Shown: positions 3,177 to 62,502, numbered from the stretch's first letter. The stretch is DNA of 64,000 nucleotides from an uncultured Verrucomicrobiae bacterium (GCA_963813025.1 CAWEXO010000013.1:96001-160000), one strand, 5' to 3'. The notes: generated by a model from the sequence alone, not told the origin. Program-made: numbers and translations.

Positions 3177-3235
3177 AAAAAAACCTGAGAAGCTGGAAGA
3201 CGTTCTATGGGTTTTCAAGGGGGATTTTGCGCAAA

Positions 3236-4519
3236 TTAATTGCAATTAATTTCTTGGAATCGGAGGACCCAGGAACCGTGTTTGACTTGATTGCGGTGGT
3301 GTAACTCTGGGTTGTACGGTGTTGCGATCTAGCCACATTTTATGGATGATTTTAAGCCAGCGTTGTCCCAGAGCAGCGTAAGGCGTCTGGCATGGGAATG
3401 GTCTTTCGCGCGGTGGGCTTTGTAGTAGATCTGGGCCCAGGCACAGCGCCTAAGACTTTGTTCGGCAAAACAGATGGACGGCGTGACGGAGGTATTGTCA
3501 CAAGCCCAGCGCTGATGGCACTCCCAATGTCTGCCGGAGCGTTTGGTCACTGGTGCAGTGCCTGCGAAGCACTGGAGGTTTTGGGCATCCGCCCTCGAAG
3601 CGTTCCCGATCATCGCCAATCTCGGCTAACAAGCGCGGAGCGAGCTTAGGGCCCAGCGCCAGGTAAGGAGCCGAACAGGTCATGATCGGGATGGGACTGG
3701 AAAAGTTCTTCGATCCGTTTGCGGTACAGTCCAAGCTGGTTTTCAACGGCAAAAAGCATTTCCACCAGACTAAGGGTCAACATGCTTTTGGCGTTAGTCG
3801 GTCGGTTCGCTGCCACAGAACTCGGTGGCTTTGGCAAAGAGTTCCATCCGGCGTGGGCCGCTTTCGTTGCGCCAAAGATGCCGACTATGCAGGAACTTTT
3901 CCCACTGCCGCTTGCCGGCCTTTTCCAGAAGCTGAGGCGTGGGGAAACGCTGCAAAAACATCCAGGCTGAAGGTCGCACTCCAGTCTTCGAAGGCTTCCA
4001 AAGCGTCGGATAGTACTCTGCCAAGGCATGGCGCAACTGATTGATAAAGGCGGTGCGCTGTTCAATGAGCCCGACCTCATCGCGGCAGAGTAGCCGGAGC
4101 TCTTTGATCAGAGGATCCTCCGGACGAAGTGGCTTCCAGTTCTGACCGTCCAGACGCAAGGCGTCGGCAAAACTCCAGGCATCGAGTCGGTCGTCTTTGA
4201 CCCCGCTGGGCGCCTTGCGTTGTCGGTAGGCTTGAGCGCTCTTGGGGTTAAGTGGATAAACCTGCATCCCGGCTTCCAACAGTTGCTCCACGGCCGGCCC
4301 TTGGCTGGTCTCGATCGCAAAAGGAATCGAGCCGTAGGGCTTGATCCGTTCACGGAATTTCTTCCAGCCTAAAGCCGAGTGTTCGATCTCGAAGTCTTCG
4401 ACCACCTTACCTTGGGGGTCGACGACGACGACGGAGTGTTTTTGACTGGCCCAATCTAGTCCACCAAAACCACGGTTTTCTAGCCAACTGCCTGATTCTT
4501 GACTTGGGGGATTATTCAT
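3236..4519 (-). pseudogene. IS110-family transposase with several frameshifts (real decay or assembly error)
   Basis: GLDWASQKH, AIET, KDDRLDA, SLPGAGPKLAPRLLAEIG and AGTAPVTKRSG motifs spread over ORFs 3794..4714, 3646..4080, 3498..3752 and 3329..3619. Confidence 0.88.
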
Positions 4520-4539
4520 CGCTGTAAATGGCCTTTTTT

Positions 4540-4796
4540 TCTGTTGTCGTCGCTTTGCCCTGCCATCCATCGAGCTGATATAGTGGCCTTCTTGAGGCTT
4601 CGTTCTATTAGATGTTGCGGCAAGGGCCTCCGGCTCGCCCGGTAGTCTATTTCCAATCCTCTTGGGGTTAGCAGGCTGACCGTGATCGAGCCGAGGCAGG
4701 ACGTCCGCCGACAATATTTTCGCCCGCGGCGGAGTTATTCACAACCTCGCTTCGCCTGGCTTGGGCGGCCGCTTCGCTCGGTCATGAATAACTCCG
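4540..4796 (-). ncRNA. Predicted IS110 bridge-RNA-like noncoding RNA (element A)
   Basis: Has a 5' 67-nt hairpin and a stem 4626-4637/4687-4697 with an internal loop. A second loop carries ATAGAACG and ATATCAG, which match the donor junction. Boundaries approximate. Confidence 0.65.
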
Positions 4797-4815
4797 AAAC
4801 TGATATCAGCTTGTC

Positions 4816-10793: not shown

Positions 10794-10923
10794 GGAGCGG
10801 CGGGAGCGGTGTCAGCGGTGGGAGTAGCTGGGCAGCTTTCCGCTTTCCAACTCCTCAGCTCTGAACTGCTAAACTGTTCAACTACTCCCACCGCTGACAC
10901 CGCTCCCGCCGCTCCCGCCGCTC
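10794..10923. repeat. Long inverted-repeat element (REPIN/MITE-like), copy 1
   Basis: Arms ggagcggcgggagcggtgtcagcggtgggagtag / ctactcccaccgctgacaccgctcccgccgctcc. A second copy lies at 11961-12075. Confidence 0.85.
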
Positions 10924-11961: not shown

Positions 11962-12075
11962 AAGCGGCGGGAGGTAGCTGGGCAGCTTTCCGCTTTCCAG
12001 CTCCTCAGCTCTGAACTGCTAAACTGTTCAACTACCTCCCGCCGCTGAAACCGCTCCCGCCGCTCCCGCCGCTTC
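11961..12075. repeat. Long inverted-repeat element, copy 2
   Basis: Same loop as 10794-10923 with compensated stem changes. Confidence 0.85.
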
Positions 12076-12083
12076 TGAAACCT

Positions 12084-13253
12084 CTATCTTCCGGAGATCG
12101 CTTGGACGATGAAACCTTTCAGGTACTCGGTCTCAGGCAAATGCGGAAGAATCGGATGATCGAAGGACTGCGACAGCAAGCGGATCAAACGAACATAACG
12201 CTTGGCGTCGACGCTCGCATCGACAATCATTTCCAGGAACATCTCCCGGGACACGTGATGCGAGCAGGAAAAGGTTGCAAGCAGACCGTGCGGTCGCAGC
12301 AGTTGGAGCGCGCGCAGATGGATCTCTTTGTATCCGCGCCAGGCGCCGGACAGGGTGTCCTTGGATCGGGTGAAAGAAGGCGGATCCAGGATAATGAGAC
12401 CGAACCGTTGCTCGCTCTTTGCCAGCTCAGCCAGGTAATCAAAGGCGTTGGCCTCAATGACAGCGACATCCAGCCCGTTTCGCCGTCCATTGGTGCGGAT
12501 GGATTCCGTCAATGGCGCACTGATCTCAACCGCGGTAACGGACGTCGCTCTTGCTCGCGCGCAGAACAGAGCGAATGCCCCCTGGTTTGCGAAGCAGTCG
12601 AGTACGTCCCGATCGCGACTGAGCTGGGCGACGATCCCGTAATTCTCGACCTGGTCGAGATAAAAGCCGGTCTTTTGCCCCTTTAGCAGATCGAGCAGGA
12701 AGGAAACCTCGTCGATCGCGATCGATATTTCACCGGGAGCCTGCCCCGCCAGAACGCCGGTGACTAACTCCAGACCTTCCGCGCGTCGGACGAAGACATC
12801 GTTACGCTCGATAATCGAGTCGGGAGCGAGCGTTTGCTGAATCGCTTGGGTAATGAGGGCTTTGCGACGGTCCATCGCTAGCGTCAATGTTTGGAGGACG
12901 ACATGCGGACCATAGCGGTCGATGATCACGCCGGGAAGCCCGTCGCTTTCACTCCAGACTACACGACAGGCATCCCGAAAAACCGAGAATTCTTCGCGCA
13001 ATTTCATCGCCTGCTCAATCCGCCGCACGAAGAAATCGACGGTCAAATCCTGGCGCTGGCGCGAAAAACGCCGGGCCACAATCTGTGACTTCGGGTTGTA
13101 AATCGCCGAGCCTAACAATCGGTCACGGCTGTCTTTCAACGACACCACATCTCCGGGCTGAGGTTCTCCGAACGTTTTCAGGATCTCGCCGGAGTAAATC
13201 CAATCGTGCCCATGAAACAGCCTGGCCCGCGGCCGGATCACGAGCCCTGCCAT
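12084..13253 (-). CDS. RlmI-like class I SAM-dependent rRNA methyltransferase
   Basis: PUA-like N-terminus, ESDGLPG, GQKTGFYLDQ, LDPPSF, FSCS and PETEYLK. Confidence 0.9.
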   Translation of the reverse strand: MAGLVIRPRARLFHGHDWIYSGEILKTFGEPQPGDVVSLKDSRDRLLGSAIYNPKSQIVARRFSRQRQDLTVDFFVRRIEQAMKLREEFSVFRDACRVVWSESDGLPGVIIDRYGPHVVLQTLTLAMDRRKALITQAIQQTLAPDSIIERNDVFVRRAEGLELVTGVLAGQAPGEISIAIDEVSFLLDLLKGQKTGFYLDQVENYGIVAQLSRDRDVLDCFANQGAFALFCARARATSVTAVEISAPLTESIRTNGRRNGLDVAVIEANAFDYLAELAKSEQRFGLIILDPPSFTRSKDTLSGAWRGYKEIHLRALQLLRPHGLLATFSCSHHVSREMFLEMIVDASVDAKRYVRLIRLLSQSFDHPILPHLPETEYLKGFIVQAISGR

Positions 13254-35438: not shown

Positions 35439-35508
35439 CGGGCGCGCGCAGGCGCTGGGGGTGAAGCGAGAACTTAGAGATTTCTCGGAGTGTCTTTGGC
35501 CCTGTGCT

Positions 35509-35626
35509 GGTAGGGCGAGAACTCGTTTGAGCCTTCGGCGAAGACTTGTTCGAGCCGGACGCAGGAGTTGCCACGTCCAACACCCGGCTCAAACAAGTTC
35601 TCGCTTGGCGCTCGAATGAATTTTCG
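35509..35626. repeat. GGTAGGGC-type compound REP whose last arm is interrupted by IS110 element B (continues at 37311-37318)
   Basis: Arms at 35509-35533 and 35537-35558 are mirrored by 35584-35604 and by 35610-35626 + CCCTACC (37312-37318). The rejoined arm matches 20/24 nt. Confidence 0.78.
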
Positions 35627-35637
35627 TATAGCAAGTC

Positions 35638-35970
35638 CGGAGTTATTCAGCAAGCTGTGGTCGGAGGCCCTACCGGTCGGAGCTCCAGCTTGTGAATAAC
35701 TCCGCCCGGAGAAAAGAAAGCTTTGGAAAAAAGAAAGGGTTTTCTTTGCCAAGGGCAGTCGGGCAAAATCCCCCGCTGCCCACGCGAAGAAGGACGCGCC
35801 GGCTGGCTACGAATAGGATTTTCGGGTCCGCGAGATCTTTAGGGCAGAGTTTCGAGCCAGCCGGTCGCGCTTTGATTCGTCACAACGAATACTCTAGTTG
35901 AGGTCGAGCACTTCACACTTCGACGACTTAACTATACGGATTTCGGACGGCCAAAGCCAAGCGGCTTTTT
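35638..35970 (+). ncRNA. Predicted IS110 bridge-RNA-like noncoding RNA (element B)
   Basis: Has a 5' 67-nt hairpin. The stem 35799-35808/35855-35864 encloses ATTTTCG and TAGGGCAG (target matches). ATACT and CTATACG match the donor. A hairpin plus T-run follows at 35953-35971. Confidence 0.68.
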
Positions 35971-36004: not shown

Positions 36005-37279
36005 ATGAACCGATCAAATCCGTTTCCGGTCCCAGATCCCCATTATATGGTCAGCGTGGGAATCGATTGGGCTGATAAAGAACACGCTGTCTGTCAACGC
36101 TCTGGTCCGGAGGGAGGATGCCGGACATTCCAGCTGGGCGCCGATCCCGTTTCGGTTCGGACCTGGCTCGAAGAGCTCAAAAGCTTGGCTGGTCCGCAGG
36201 GGCGGGTGGCCATTGGTTTTGAACAAAATCGGGGAGCACTCTTTGAAATGCTTCGCACCCAGGGAGACTGGATCGACCTCTATCCGCTCAATCCTTTGAG
36301 TTTAAGCGAATACCGCAAGGTCTTCTTTACTAGTGGCGCCAAGGATGACCCCCTCGACAGCCAATTGATCGAAGAGCTCGTTGATCACCATCGGGATCGG
36401 CTCCGGCTTTATCAACCCCCGGAGCCGGTAGTGCGGGAACTGGATTTGCTCGGTCAGCACCGACGCAAAGCCGTCGAGGCCTCCGTGGTGTGCGAAAACC
36501 AACTCACCAGCTTACTCAAAGTCTACTATCCGCTGGCCCTGGAGGTCCTCGACGATCTGGACACGACCCTGGCACTACATTTTTTGAAACGCTGGCCGAC
36601 CCTGCAGAGTTTAAAAAAAGCCAAGTCCCAGACCCTGCGCTCCTTTTTCTATCAACACCACAGCCGGAGCCAAAGCTTGATTGAGGAGCGGCTGGAAAAG
36701 ATCGCTCGGGCCCAAACCGTCACCGAGGATCGTTCTCTGCTGGAGCCCTCCGTGCTGAGTTGCAAGTGTTTGGTCAGTCAATTGTTGCCGCTGCGAGATT
36801 CCATCAAGGCTTTTGACAAAGCCATCCACACTCTGTTTGCCAAACATCCCGATCGGCACATTTTTGAAAGTCTGCCCGGAGCCGGCCCGCAATTAGCCCC
36901 GCGCTTGTTGGTGGCTTTTGGCTCCAATCGGCAGGCTTTTGCCCAAGCCCTGGAGGTACAGAAAAAAAGCGGAATCGCTCCGGTCCAAGTGCGCAGCGGC
37001 CAAACCAAAAGCGTCCAGCGGCGGCGCTTTCGCTCCAAATTCCTGTGCCAGAGCTTCCACGAATTCGCGGCTCATTCCATTCCTTATTCCCAATGGGCCA
37101 AGCTCTATTATCAAGAGCAAATGGCCCGCGGTAAGTCCCACCACACTGCCGTGCGCGCCTTGGCCTTTAAATGGATCCGCGTCATCTTCCGGCTCTGGCA
37201 GGACCGCACCCCTTATGACGAAGAGCGCTACCTCCAAGTCCTCAAAAAACGCCACTCACCAATCGGTGAAAAACTTTAA
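36005..37279 (+). CDS. IS110-family transposase/recombinase
   Basis: VGIDWADKEH, GFE, KDDPLDS, SLPGAGPQLAPRLL, SGIAPVQVRSG and VRALAFKW. Confidence 0.94.
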   Translation: MNRSNPFPVPDPHYMVSVGIDWADKEHAVCQRSGPEGGCRTFQLGADPVSVRTWLEELKSLAGPQGRVAIGFEQNRGALFEMLRTQGDWIDLYPLNPLSLSEYRKVFFTSGAKDDPLDSQLIEELVDHHRDRLRLYQPPEPVVRELDLLGQHRRKAVEASVVCENQLTSLLKVYYPLALEVLDDLDTTLALHFLKRWPTLQSLKKAKSQTLRSFFYQHHSRSQSLIEERLEKIARAQTVTEDRSLLEPSVLSCKCLVSQLLPLRDSIKAFDKAIHTLFAKHPDRHIFESLPGAGPQLAPRLLVAFGSNRQAFAQALEVQKKSGIAPVQVRSGQTKSVQRRRFRSKFLCQSFHEFAAHSIPYSQWAKLYYQEQMARGKSHHTAVRALAFKWIRVIFRLWQDRTPYDEERYLQVLKKRHSPIGEKL

Positions 37280-37466
37280 CTTTTTCCCTTGCCAGACCTG
37301 CTCAGATACTGCCCTACCGACCCAAGTCCATAGATTACGTTGCGAGACAGCTTCTGAATTTTCGTCCTCCCAGTCGTGGACCAGCAGACCTTCCATCGGC
37401 CTTTTCTCTTTGGTTGCAAAAGAGCCGGGGGTCCGCCACTAGTTGTACCTTTATTTATCAAAATTT

Positions 37467-60844: not shown

Positions 60845-61324
60845 ATGCTGATGGTTGGGATTATTACGATTTCGGATCGGGCGGCGGGGGGTACCTATGA
60901 GGATCTCAGCGGGCCGGCTCTGGCGGCCGTTGTCCGAAAATACGGCTGGGAGGTTCAGGCCGAGGCGCTGGTACCGGATGAGCTGGAGTCCATCCAGTCA
61001 GCAGTGCGATCTTTTGCCGCGCAGGGCTGCCAGCTTATCCTCACGACAGGCGGTACGGGGATTGCCCGGCGTGACATCACGCCTGAAGCAATACGTGGCA
61101 TTATGAGGGTCGAATTGCCGGGCTTCGGCGAGGTGATGCGCGCCGAGTCCATGAAGCTGACCCCGAATGCGATCTTGTCACGGAACCTGGCTGCTGTCGT
61201 GGATCAGGCTTTGGTCATTGCCTTGCCTGGCAAACCGCAAGGTGCTCTCGATTGCCTGAGCTTTGTGGCGGCGGCGATACCGCACGCCGCGAAAGTCGCG
61301 GCTGAGCTCCCGACGTCGTGCTAG
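60845..61324 (+). CDS. mog: Molybdopterin adenylyltransferase (MogA/MoaB family)
   Basis: ISDRA...YEDLSG, TTGGTG..RDITPEA and LPGKP. Confidence 0.9.
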   Translation: MLMVGIITISDRAAGGTYEDLSGPALAAVVRKYGWEVQAEALVPDELESIQSAVRSFAAQGCQLILTTGGTGIARRDITPEAIRGIMRVELPGFGEVMRAESMKLTPNAILSRNLAAVVDQALVIALPGKPQGALDCLSFVAAAIPHAAKVAAELPTSC

Positions 61325-61332
61325 CCGGTGGG

Positions 61333-61383
61333 AGTGCCAGTGCCAATGTCAGTGTCAGTGTCAGTGTCAGTGCCAGTGTCAGT
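61333..61383 (+). repeat. Hexamer tandem repeat (CAGTGY)n
   Basis: agtgcc agtgcc aatgtc agtgtc agtgtc agtgtc agtgcc agtgtc agt. Confidence 0.9.
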
Positions 61384-62369: not shown

Positions 62370-62453
62370 CACCAGCACTGAACCCTGACGCTGACACTGA
62401 CACTGTCACTGTCACTGTCACTGGCACTGGCACTGTCACTGGCACTGTCACTG
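62367..62453 (-). repeat. Hexamer tandem repeat (CACTGN)n, inverted relative to 61333-61383
   Basis: ctgaca/ctgtca/ctggca units. Confidence 0.9.
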
Positions 62454-62502
62454 CCCCCCGCTCGCCGCTTGCGCTCAATTTTGCCGCGCCCTAAGATAGA
62501 CC

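What the first reader, a model, noticed from the sequence alone, without database searches (positions are those of the whole stretch)
4730..4796. Same 67-nt hairpin module at the 5' end of two divergent IS110 elements
Seen: both elements begin, 11 nt inside the left end and just after the predicted -10 box, with CGGAGTTATTCA-N43-TGAATAACTCCG (4796-4730 minus and 35638-35704 plus). Both read TTGTGAATAACTCCGCC on the 3' side. The 12-bp arms and the 43-nt spacer length are identical, whereas the spacers, guide loops, cores and transposases are very different. Each spacer holds its own 8-nt direct repeat (GCGAAGCG x2 and GGTCGGAG x2). In element B it also contains GCCCTACC, a copy of the target flank. 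Inference: a conserved extra RNA domain, or a DNA-level inverted binding site for a host or recombinase factor, that may define an IS110 sub-lineage. I do not recognise it from the published bridge or seek RNA models.
Basis: partly seen in the sequence, partly recalled or inferred. Interest (0 to 1): 0.8.

Follow-up and report, generated by a model that had tools for sequence, protein, structure and literature searches.

The report
Invariant 5' hairpin of bridge RNAs
The shared 67-base hairpin is the first stem-loop of the guide ("bridge") RNA of two jumping genes, a known part of such RNAs, but here enlarged and with a base that has stayed letter-for-letter the same across a large, old branch of the family.

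Summary
CGGAGTTATTCA-N43-TGAATAACTCCG lies 11 nt inside the left end of two IS110 elements whose recombinases are about 30% identical.

It is neither a REP nor a new guide loop. It sits in the position of the published 5' stem-loop of IS110 bridge RNAs: just after the -10-like box and upstream of a target-binding loop and a donor-binding loop, which I located by their matches to flanks and ends.

Three things differ from the published account:
- It is twice as long as the IS621/IS622 stem-loop.
- Its 11-12 bp base is invariant, whereas published 5' stem-loops are called sequence-diverse.
- On a recombinase tree it looks ancestral to a large clade of ~420-aa enzymes and was later replaced in a derived subclade.

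Compensatory changes and a G·U excess over A·C (42 against 8) support pairing in the sense RNA. The "target copy" GCCCTACC consists mostly of family-conserved apex letters and is absent from relatives with the same target.

Two observations remain open. A related hairpin occurs in IS256-like and IS3-like elements. The conserved core also reads as a DnaA box (TTATTCACA) on the bottom strand of the 3' arm.

The parts
35625..35632 (+). Element B left junction: core CG (35625-35626) plus the -10-like TATAGC (35627-35632), which is also the right donor half-site
   Evidence: Alignment of 11 copies and about 190 empty REP sites. CTATACG at 35932-35938 is complementary to CGTATAG (read).
35638..35704 (+). 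Element B 5' stem-loop: arms 35638-35649 and 35693-35704, a 7-bp extension CAAGCTG/CAGCTTG, and an apex containing GGTCGGAG x2 and GCCCTACC
   Evidence: Fold -35.9 kcal/mol, z = -5.8. Model R1 scores 61.5 bits on the sense strand and 41.4 on the antisense.
35753..35781 (+). [quoted passage not shown]
   Evidence: MFE fold; not studied further.
35796..35870 (+). Element B target-binding loop: left guide GGATTTTCG (35816-35824) and right guide plus handshake TAGGGCAG (35840-35847)
   Evidence: The left guide matches left flank GAATTTTCG at 8 of 9 positions. TAGGGCAG is the reverse complement of CTGCCCTA at the right junction. Relatives L043, L070 and L115 carry AGGTTTTCG in this loop and AGGTTTTCG in their flank.
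35872..35960 (+). Element B donor-binding loop (limits approximate): ATACT at 35889-35893 matches the right end, CTATACG at 35932-35938 matches the left end
   Evidence: Read. The left donor match is only 5 nt and is weak.
36005..37279 (+). Element B recombinase, 424 aa
   Evidence: PF01548 1.8e-20 and PF02371 1.2e-08. NF033542 'IS110 family RNA-guided transposase', 148.9 bits against a cut-off of 140. Distant from ISCro4 and IS621 in the PDB, E 1.5e-06 and 7e-06.
37289..37318 (+). Element B right end: -35-like TTGCCA (37289-37294), end ...GATACTG (to 37311), then right target CCCTACC (37312-37318)
   Evidence: If the ends are joined, TTGCCA lies 17 nt before TATAGC (by reading, not by a tool).
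4802..4809 (-). Element A left junction: core CT (4809-4808) and the -10-like GATATC (4807-4802)
   Evidence: Homology to L073, L069 and L075 begins at 4811/4810. ATATCAGCT at 4581-4573 is complementary to AGCTGATAT.
4730..4796 (-). Element A 5' stem-loop: the same 12-bp arms, extension UGACC/GGUUG, and symmetric GA/GA and GAA/GAA internal loops
   Evidence: Fold -35.4 kcal/mol, z = -6.7, against -28.6 for the other strand. R1 scores 65.9 bits sense and 32.7 antisense.
4620..4703 (-). Element A target-binding loop (left guide region 4681-4671, right guide region 4654-4645). It matches A's present flanks poorly.
   Evidence: Fold. In the relative L069 the same loop matches its flank at 13 of 14 positions, and AAGGGAAGAC matches the right junction GTCTTCCCTT.
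4555..4625 (-). Element A donor-binding loop: ATAGAACG (4608-4601) matches the right end, ATATCAGCT (4581-4573) matches the left end
3198..4714 (-). Element A recombinase gene in pieces (frames 3794-4714 and 3329-3619) and the right end at about 3200, with core CT at 3199-3198
   Evidence: Homology to relatives ends at 3188-3198.

Best explanation
The hairpin is the 5' stem-loop domain of the bridge RNA of an old IS110 clade.

How it is made. Transcription starts a few bases after the -10-like TATAG box, which is also the right donor half-site. A -35 is supplied by the right end when the element circularises. The first 67 nt fold into a long irregular hairpin with four parts:
- an invariant 11-12 bp base, GGAGUUAUUCA/UGAAUAACUCC;
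- a 4-8 bp extension that covaries;
- symmetric purine-rich internal loops;
- a GC-rich apical stem with a C-rich loop.

What it does. By analogy with IS621 and IS622, it is an accessory handle that raises the recombinase's affinity for the RNA and/or protects the 5' end. It is not a guide.

What the invariance implies. The frozen core (GUU.U.CA paired with UG.A.AAC, plus an unvarying G just above it) suggests that something reads the sequence itself and not only the helix.

Shown here: position, linkage to IS110, RNA-type pairing, and the phylogenetic pattern. Inferred: the transcription start, the binding or stability role, and the existence of a sequence-specific reader.
For: Position:
- The hairpin lies 11 nt inside the left end in both elements, directly after the -10-like box.
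- Separate target and donor loops lie downstream. B: left guide 8 of 9, right guide 8 nt, right donor guide 7 nt. L069: 13 of 14 and 10 nt. The left guide changes together with the flank between B and L043/L070/L115.

Literature:
- Deleting the 5' stem-loop lowers binding and slightly lowers recombination (PMC11208158, passages; 10.1101/2025.05.14.653916, passages).

Linkage to IS110:
- Own genome: 14 loci hit by model R1. 13 lie upstream of a PF01548 match on the same strand; the 14th is a copy cut inside the target-binding loop.
- Public genomes: 36 exact-arm loci. 18 have the recombinase downstream, 10 are cut by a contig end within 220 nt, 6 are left-end remnants, 1 (L067) has only a -10-like box upstream, and 1 looks like chance.

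Pairing (A4, 41 sequences):
- 92.3% of cells pair, against 29-46% when the partner is slid. 12 of 17 pairs change on both sides. 0 of 500 shuffles reach the observed values.
- G·U 42 against A·C 8.
- The sense strand folds better.

Phylogeny:
- Of 72 recombinase-selected metagenome loci with enough upstream DNA, 2 have exact arms, 16 have variant arms and 54 have other 5' hairpins.
- On the tree the arms occur in all 7 A-clade rows and in the basal B groups. A derived clade of 43 rows has none.
Against: - No RNA data: no RNA run was listed, so the transcript and its 5' end are inferred.
- The published 5' stem-loops are short (34 nt), sequence-diverse and thought to make no specific contacts, so a recombinase-specific reading of the invariant core goes beyond the analogy.
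- A related hairpin (R1 31-41 bits) sits inside IS256-like and IS3-like elements in genomes without an A/B-clade recombinase. That argues against a function tied to the bridge recombinase.
- The G above the base helix never varies (41 of 41) while its partner does (U 22, C 13, G 6). Pairing alone does not explain this.
- The variant arms in A4 were picked by likeness to the palindromic arms, which favours pairing somewhat.
- One intact element (G174) has a base helix with its outer 3-4 pairs broken.
Confidence: 0.7

Rival explanations
1. Dual coding with a host-factor site. The conserved core is a DnaA box in the duplex DNA of the left end: the bottom strand of the 3' arm reads TTATTCACA. The RNA helix simply has to stay complementary to it. 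DnaA bound there would gate transcription of the bridge RNA and recombinase, or recombination itself, to the replication state. The Tn5/IS50 end is a precedent. This can hold together with the RNA stem-loop reading.
For: - The consensus is TTWTNCACA, with TTATNCACA and TTTTCCACA as box classes (PMC5835720, passages). Tn5 ends carry a DnaA site (PMC3347997, passages).
- Column by column, the 3' side keeps box positions 1-4 and 6-8 in 34-41 of 41 rows and position 9 in 30 of 41. The 5' side keeps position 8 in 13 of 41 and position 9 in 5 of 41. The constraint is therefore one-sided, as expected for a box and not for a helix.
- The IS256/IS3-linked variant reads TTATCCA(C/T)(A/G) on one arm and TTACCCACA on the other.
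- Left ends of the 54 relatives without the arms hold 16 TT[AGT]TNCACA words in 12 loci. Shuffles give 1.8, and the 66 kb of their ORFs hold 2.
- In the own genome 13 of 52 strict boxes lie in the hairpins.
Against: - No binding data.
- No cluster of boxes marking an origin was found near dnaA or anywhere in this 80%-complete assembly, so the organism's own box preference is unknown.
- The match was noticed after the fact, among many possible known motifs.
- Bridge recombination works in vitro and in human cells without bacterial host factors (PMC11208158, passages; 10.1101/2025.05.14.653916, passages).
- The sense-strand word UGUGRAWAA could equally be an RNA signal.
Confidence: 0.2
2. A portable insertion-sequence end module unrelated to bridge recombination. 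A hairpin placed just inside an element's end, reading inward, is used by several IS families. It could act as an RNase III-type processing site, a 5' or 3' end protector, or a barrier against read-in from outside. The IS110 clade would merely have it at the head of its RNA.
For: - The related hairpin has the same arms at 9 of 11 positions and the same inner CGGAGGC...GCCGGAGC words as B-type.
- In G185 (3 copies) it lies between the terminal inverted repeat and the stop codon of an IS256-like gene (PF00872, E 1.7e-147).
- In G026 and G200 it lies in the tail of IS3-like orfB (rve and rve_3).
- Those genomes have no A/B-clade recombinase: two have no match and two have only weak partial hits (E about 1e-12) from other IS110 subfamilies.

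Against: - Only 8 such copies in 4 genomes were examined, and all share one arm variant, so this may be one lineage or one capture event.
- No U-tract follows the hairpin, so it is not an intrinsic terminator: 0 terminator-like sites were found.
- No processing data.
Confidence: 0.15
3. A DNA-level inverted repeat bound by the recombinase or another protein as part of donor recognition, with no role for RNA folding.
For: The palindrome is perfect and invariant. The 5' arm starts only 12 bp from the crossover point.
Against: - Arm spacing varies from 36 to 53 nt.
- Outer pairs change on both sides (GG/CC to AA/TT, GA/TC, GC/GC and others).
- Wobble pairs are allowed on the sense strand only, 42 against 8.
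- The extension stem covaries with no sequence conservation.
Confidence: 0.05
4. An ordinary REP or a chance palindrome scattered independently of IS110.
For: 1 of 36 public exact matches (L051) has no -10-like box and no IS context. By my arithmetic, about 0.7 chance matches are expected in 596 Gb. Four lone 11-mer arms exist in the own genome.
Against: All 14 model hits in the own genome lie in IS110 left ends. The genome's real REP-like repeat (about 190 copies) is a different sequence and is B's target.
Confidence: 0.01

Closest known systems
5' stem-loop of the IS621/IS622 bridge RNA (Durrant 2024 PMC11208160; Hiraizumi 2024 PMC11208158; Perry 2025 preprint 10.1101/2025.05.14.653916; passages read)
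   Same: [quoted passage not shown] It carries no guides, and its structure is conserved across orthologues.
   Different: It is 67 nt or more, against 34 nt. Its base of 11-12 bp is invariant between recombinases about 30% identical, whereas the published statement is that the sequences are diverse. It has symmetric purine-rich internal loops and a conserved C-rich apex. About 90 nt of extra linker with two small hairpins precede the target-binding loop, so the whole RNA is about 350 nt against 177 nt.
DnaA binding site in the Tn5/IS50 end (PMC3347997, passages) and the DnaA box consensus TTWTNCACA (PMC5835720, passages)
   Same: A nine-base word fitting the consensus lies close to the end of an insertion sequence.
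   Different: Here the word lies in a palindrome that is also an RNA helix, 67-78 nt inside the end. No binding has been shown. The Tn5 site lies within the transposase-binding end itself.
REP-type palindromic repeats as IS110 targets (ISPpu9 and ISPpu10; PMC12288879 and 10.64898/2026.03.19.712850, abstracts seen)
   Same: Element B inserts at one fixed point of a REP-like palindromic repeat.
   Different: The hairpin in question is inside the element, not in the target.

Membership tests
IS110-group bridge RNA, 5' stem-loop | [quoted passage not shown] | tested here: met
   The hairpin starts 5 nt after TATAGC (B) and GATATC (A). The right end of B carries TTGCCA 17 nt from TATAGC once the ends are joined (the spacing is by reading). 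The promoter scan did not call TATAGC because it lacks the final T.
IS110-group bridge RNA, 5' stem-loop | Followed by a target-binding loop and a donor-binding loop whose sides match the flanks and the element ends | tested here: met
   B: 8 of 9, 8 nt, 7 nt and a weak 5 nt. L069: 13 of 14 and 10 nt. Guide and flank change together in L043, L070 and L115. A's guides fit its present site poorly.
IS110-group bridge RNA, 5' stem-loop | Encoded by an element with a DEDD RuvC-like domain plus a Tnp-domain recombinase | tested here: met
   PF01548 and PF02371; NF033542 above its cut-off.
IS110-group bridge RNA, 5' stem-loop | Helix conserved by covariation | tested here: met
   12 of 17 pairs change on both sides, 92.3% of cells pair, and 0 of 500 shuffles reach this. 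The caveat on how the rows were chosen is stated in the report.
IS110-group bridge RNA, 5' stem-loop | Sequence diverse among orthologues (as published) | tested here: not met
   Arms are identical in 36 public loci spanning several phyla and in A and B. Four pairs never vary in 41 rows. This is a difference from the published description, not a reason to exclude membership.
IS110-group bridge RNA, 5' stem-loop | Transcribed as part of the RNA | not testable with these tools
   No RNA run was listed for this stretch.
DnaA box | Nine-base word fitting TTWTNCACA | tested here: met
   TTATTCACA lies on the bottom strand of the 3' arm in A and B. Column counts are and enrichment.
DnaA box | Bound by DnaA; the same word used at the organism's origin | tested here: inconclusive
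   No window of 600 nt holds more than 2 boxes with at most 1 mismatch. Only single boxes lie near dnaA (C13:171759). The assembly is 80% complete. Binding cannot be tested here.
REP element | Many intergenic copies independent of mobile-element genes | tested here: not met
   14 of 14 own-genome hits lie in IS110 left ends.
Kink-turn | Asymmetric three-base bulge followed by tandem sheared G·A pairs | tested here: not met
   The predicted loops are symmetric (2x2 GA/GA and 3x3 GAA/GAA in A). Tandem G·A pairs are possible but the bulge is absent. This rests on fold prediction only.
Rfam families | Match to any curated covariance model | tested here: not met
   0 matches at gathering score in the window. 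Only chance-level microRNA-type hits appear at E up to 10.

The most novel reading that the evidence does not exclude
The frozen core of the hairpin is a DnaA box written into an RNA helix. A large IS110 clade, and IS256-like and IS3-like elements carrying the same hairpin, would then recruit the replication initiator DnaA to their ends. That would tie expression of the guide RNA and recombinase, or recombination itself, to the cell's replication state. The need to keep both the box and the RNA pairing would explain why the arms have not changed while the enzymes diverged to 30% identity.
Probability: 0.17. Interest if true: 0.8.

Novelty: new variant of a known kind. Interest (0 to 1): 0.5.

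Why it matters
The 5' stem-loop is the least understood part of bridge RNAs. It is invisible in the cryo-EM maps, nearly dispensable in IS621 and IS622, and described as variable in sequence.

A large clade in which its base is invariant, and where the same hairpin turns up in other insertion-sequence families, points to a sequence-specific partner that current models do not include. That partner could be the recombinase, a host protein such as DnaA, or an RNase.

The question is directly testable by flipping the base pairs, which keeps the helix but changes the sequence. The answer could matter for engineering bridge recombinases from this clade, and for understanding how such elements are held in check in their hosts.

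Tried and rejected
- Hairpin as the target-binding loop or a third guide loop: rejected. The guides lie downstream. B's 10-nt identity to the target (GCCCTACCGG) is built from family-conserved GCC and CGG plus 4 free letters. Relatives with the same right target CCCTACC (L043, L115) have other apices, and L069's apex does not contain its target.
- Rfam: nothing at gathering score, and only chance-level hits at E up to 10.
- RNA evidence: no RNA holder was listed.
- Earlier findings of this scan: nothing on this place or sequence. The word search gave only other bridge-RNA reports, which were not used.
- The search for related loci with the 12-row alignment A2 failed because no stretch was conserved enough. 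It was repeated with the 6-row A3, so the unbiased sample covers the B side only.
- Origin-type clusters of DnaA boxes: none found.
- The 3-mismatch pattern scan of 401 genomes gave mostly chance matches, and the reversed control also hit. Only hits with a -10-like box, an IS gene or inner-motif likeness were kept.
- Kink-turn reading of the purine loops: not met.
- No structure or complex prediction was run, because the tools do not model protein with RNA.

Full report
**What is there.** The motif CGGAGTTATTCA-N43-TGAATAACTCCG occurs at window 4730-4796 (minus strand) and 35638-35704 (plus strand). The pattern matched twice in the window, and none of 100 shuffles reached that number. Each copy precedes an IS110-family gene.
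- Element B has an intact 424-aa recombinase at 36005-37279: PF01548 and PF02371, NF033542.
- Element A's gene is split between frames (3794-4714 and 3329-3619).
- A and B are 28.8% identical over 219 aa. A's intact relative L073 is 32.8% identical to B over 390 aa.
- B is only distantly related to the solved ISCro4 and IS621 enzymes (E 1.5e-06 and 7e-06).

**Ends and targets.** The window's genome (16 contigs, 4.4 Mb, 80% complete) holds 12 exact hairpins, 11 in B copies and one in A.

Aligning the B copies with about 190 empty copies of a REP-like palindromic repeat fixes the junctions:
- left junction: ...AATTTTCG|TATAGCAAGTC|CGGAG...
- right junction: ...TTGCCAGACCTGCTCAGATACTG|CCCTACC
- empty site: ...AATTTTCGCCCTACC...

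For A, homology to three relatives runs from window 4811/4810 to 3188-3198. When B's ends are joined, a TTGCCA in the right end lies 17 nt before TATAGC. This is by my reading, and it matches the junction promoter described for IS621 (PMC11208160, passages).

**Where the guides are.** Downstream of the hairpin, B has a long stem at 35796-35870. Its internal loop carries GGATTTTCG, which matches the left flank GAATTTTCG at 8 of 9 positions. It also carries TAGGGCAG, the reverse complement of CTGCCCTA at the right junction. This is the strand logic published for the left and right target guides and the handshake bases.

A second stem-loop (about 35872-35960) carries CTATACG, complementary to the left end CGTATAG, and a weaker ATACT match to the right end.

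Two comparisons confirm the assignment:
- In B's relatives L043, L070 and L115 the first loop reads AGGTTTTCG, and so does their flank.
- In A's relative L069 the first loop matches the left flank at 13 of 14 positions, and AAGGGAAGAC matches the right junction GTCTTCCCTT.

A's own guides fit its present site poorly. A is also the copy with the broken gene. [quoted passage not shown] Hiraizumi et al. report four things about the 5' stem-loop (PMC11208158, passages):
- it is invisible in the map;
- deleting it lowers RNA binding and slightly lowers recombination;
- it probably makes no specific contacts;

In IS622 it spans positions 1-34, and including it slightly raises activity (preprint 10.1101/2025.05.14.653916, passages). 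The hairpin here is the positional counterpart of that element. It is that element, but not a standard version of it.

**Linkage to IS110.** A covariance model of the hairpin (R1) finds 14 loci in the own genome:
- 11 in B copies (10 full and one cut inside the target-binding loop);
- one in A;
- an A-like remnant at C5:279192;
- a variant at C3:82916.

Thirteen of the 14 lie upstream of a PF01548 match on the same strand. The other IS110 subfamilies in the genome, which make up the rest of the 40 PF01548 matches, lack the hairpin.

An exact-arm scan of one genome per species returned 36 loci, mostly Verrucomicrobiota MAGs but also Acidobacteriota, Methylococcaceae, Solirubrobacterales, Binatia and Akkermansia bins. 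They divide as follows:
- 18 have an A- or B-type recombinase downstream in the right orientation;
- 10 are cut by a contig end within 220 nt;
- 6 are left-end remnants;
- L067 has only a -10-like box upstream;
- L051 looks like chance, and by my arithmetic about 0.7 chance matches are expected in 596 Gb.

**Pairing.** In the exact-arm set the stem continues for 4-8 bp with covariation. Column pair 15-68 is AU in 17 rows and GC in 10. Pair 16-67 is GC 11, CG 7, UG 2 and AU 1.

To see the arms vary, I took 80 metagenome loci chosen by recombinase similarity alone. Of the 72 with at least 330 nt upstream, 2 have exact arms, 16 have variant arms that keep GTT[AG]T, and 54 have other 5' hairpins. 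The variant arms include AGAG/CTCT, GAAG/CTTC, AAAG/CTTT, GCAG/CTGC, GGCG/CGCC, GTCG/CGAC and GTTGTTCA/TGAACAAC. TTAA/TTAA and AATCA/TGATT occur elsewhere.

On the combined alignment A4 (41 rows):
- 92.3% of cells pair, against 29-46% when the partner is slid by 1-3 columns;
- 12 of 17 pairs change on both sides;
- no shuffle out of 500 reaches the observed values;
- four pairs never vary (G-C, U-A, U-A and A-U);
- G·U occurs 42 times and A·C 8 times;
- the sense strand folds better than the antisense, -35.4 against -28.6 kcal/mol for A and -35.9 against -33.4 for B.

One caveat applies. The variant rows were picked by likeness to the palindromic arms, which favours pairing somewhat, although it does not favour double changes.

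**Phylogeny.** The tree has 86 recombinases (quick IQ-TREE, LG+G4) and is rooted on two other IS110 proteins of the same genome. The arms appear in all 7 A-clade rows and in the basal groups on the B side. A derived clade of 43 rows (support 90) has none, and at least 7 changes are needed overall.

The simplest reading is that the hairpin is ancestral to the whole clade of about 420-aa recombinases and was later replaced. Within the replaced clade the 5' hairpins keep a conserved apex and a variable base, the opposite of the pattern here.

The "8-nt direct repeats" are the two strands of symmetric purine-rich internal loops. They change together as repeats: GCGAAG x2 in A, GCGGAG x2 in L075, GTGAAG x2 in L066, and CGGAG x2 in B-type hairpins.

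The apex usually ends in CCMA|GCC (CCCAAGCC or CCCTAGCC). B's GCCCTACCGG does equal 10 nt of its target. However, it consists of conserved GCC and CGG plus four free letters, and L043 and L115, which have the same right target, lack it. I therefore reject it as a guide at the family level. A role peculiar to B is not excluded.

**What does not fit a purely bridge-RNA role.** A clearly related hairpin scores 31-41 bits with R1. It has arms GGAGTTAYCCA/TGGRTAACTCC and the same inner words CGGAGGC...GCCGGAGC. It occurs in four genomes in which a recombinase profile search found either no match or only weak partial hits (E about 1e-12) from other IS110 subfamilies:
- In G185 it lies inside three copies of an IS256-like element, between the terminal repeat and the stop codon (PF00872, E 1.7e-147).
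- In G026 and G200 it lies in the tail of IS3-like orfB.

The G just above the base helix is also invariant (41 of 41) while its partner varies.

The 3' side, read on the bottom strand, is TTATTCACA. This fits the DnaA box consensus TTWTNCACA (PMC5835720, passages). The IS256/IS3 variant reads TTATCCA(C/T)(A/G) and TTACCCACA.

Left ends of the 54 arm-less relatives hold 16 words of the form TT[AGT]TNCACA. Shuffles give 1.8, and their ORFs hold 2. Tn5 ends carry a DnaA site (PMC3347997, passages).

No origin-like cluster of boxes could be found in this incomplete assembly. The DnaA idea therefore stays a lead.

**Verdict.** [quoted passage not shown] Its likely role is as an affinity or stability handle. 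The frozen sequence, and its presence in other IS families, point to an unidentified sequence-specific reader. I rate it a new variant of a known kind, of moderate interest.

Noticed in passing
window 35490-35626 and 37312-37345; own genome, about 190 copies: Element B inserts at one fixed point of a REP-like palindromic repeat of about 130 nt (arms GGCCCTGTGCCGGTAGGGCGA... / ...TCGCCCTACCGGCACAGGGCC). The pattern search listed 193 matches, a few of which are IS right junctions.
   Followed up: partly
own genome C1:207908, C11:84453 and C13:92683 copies of B (loci L002, L007, L008): 3 of 11 B copies carry a 13-nt tandem duplication, CGTATAGCAAGTC, at the very left end, bounded by CG on each side. 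One possible origin is insertion of a circle into the left end of a resident copy followed by recombination, but this was not tested.
   Followed up: no
window 35625-35626 and 37310-37311: The core differs between the two junctions in all B copies: CG on the left, as in the empty target, and TG on the right. One copy has TA. The right target guide carries the TG version.
   Followed up: no
L049:2440-2660 and L078 (same MAG); own genome L002:1370-1600: There are left-end-only copies without a recombinase. L049 and L078 both stop at GCGCGCCGGCTG, the 5' half of the target-binding-loop stem, and in L049 this is followed by CCCTACC. The own-genome copy at C1:207908 stops inside the target-binding loop. 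These may be deletion derivatives that used a pseudo right end.
   Followed up: partly
L109-L111 (G185), L113 and L112 (G026), L083 (G200), L114 (G223): A hairpin of the same family occurs inside IS256-like and IS3-like elements, next to a weak rve-like ORF, and in two places of unknown context.
   Followed up: partly
L131, L138, L150, L157, L160, L162, L167 and others, 200-380 nt upstream of the recombinase gene: Left ends of relatives that lack the arms carry a tandem word, CTGTGGAAATGTG(G/A)AAAA, and sometimes its complement further on. This is the same UGUGRAWAA / TTWTNCACA theme.
   Followed up: partly
window 3198-4810: Element A has a recombinase gene broken over frames. It sits directly after the stop codon of an upstream gene that I take to be a peptidase (not checked by any search), and its target guides fit the present flanks poorly. 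It is probably a decayed copy at a non-cognate site.
   Followed up: partly
own genome C13:491550; C11:82665: A lone 3' arm followed by an A-type target-binding loop (a fragment of a third A-like element), and a lone 5' arm inside a REP copy just beyond the right end of a B copy.
   Followed up: no
own genome C13:19313, C13:353225, C13:452704 (loci L021, L020, L025): A third subfamily on the A side has a diverged hairpin (CCATAGTTATGCA...TACATAACTTGG; R1 about 24 bits), followed by a second GTTGTTAATAACTCC word.
   Followed up: no
window 61324-61383 and 62385-62466; 10794-10915 and 11963-12108: Inverted arrays of (GTCAGT/GCCAGT)n about 1 kb apart, and paired GC-rich palindromes about 1.15 kb apart. 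Unrelated to the finding.
   Followed up: no
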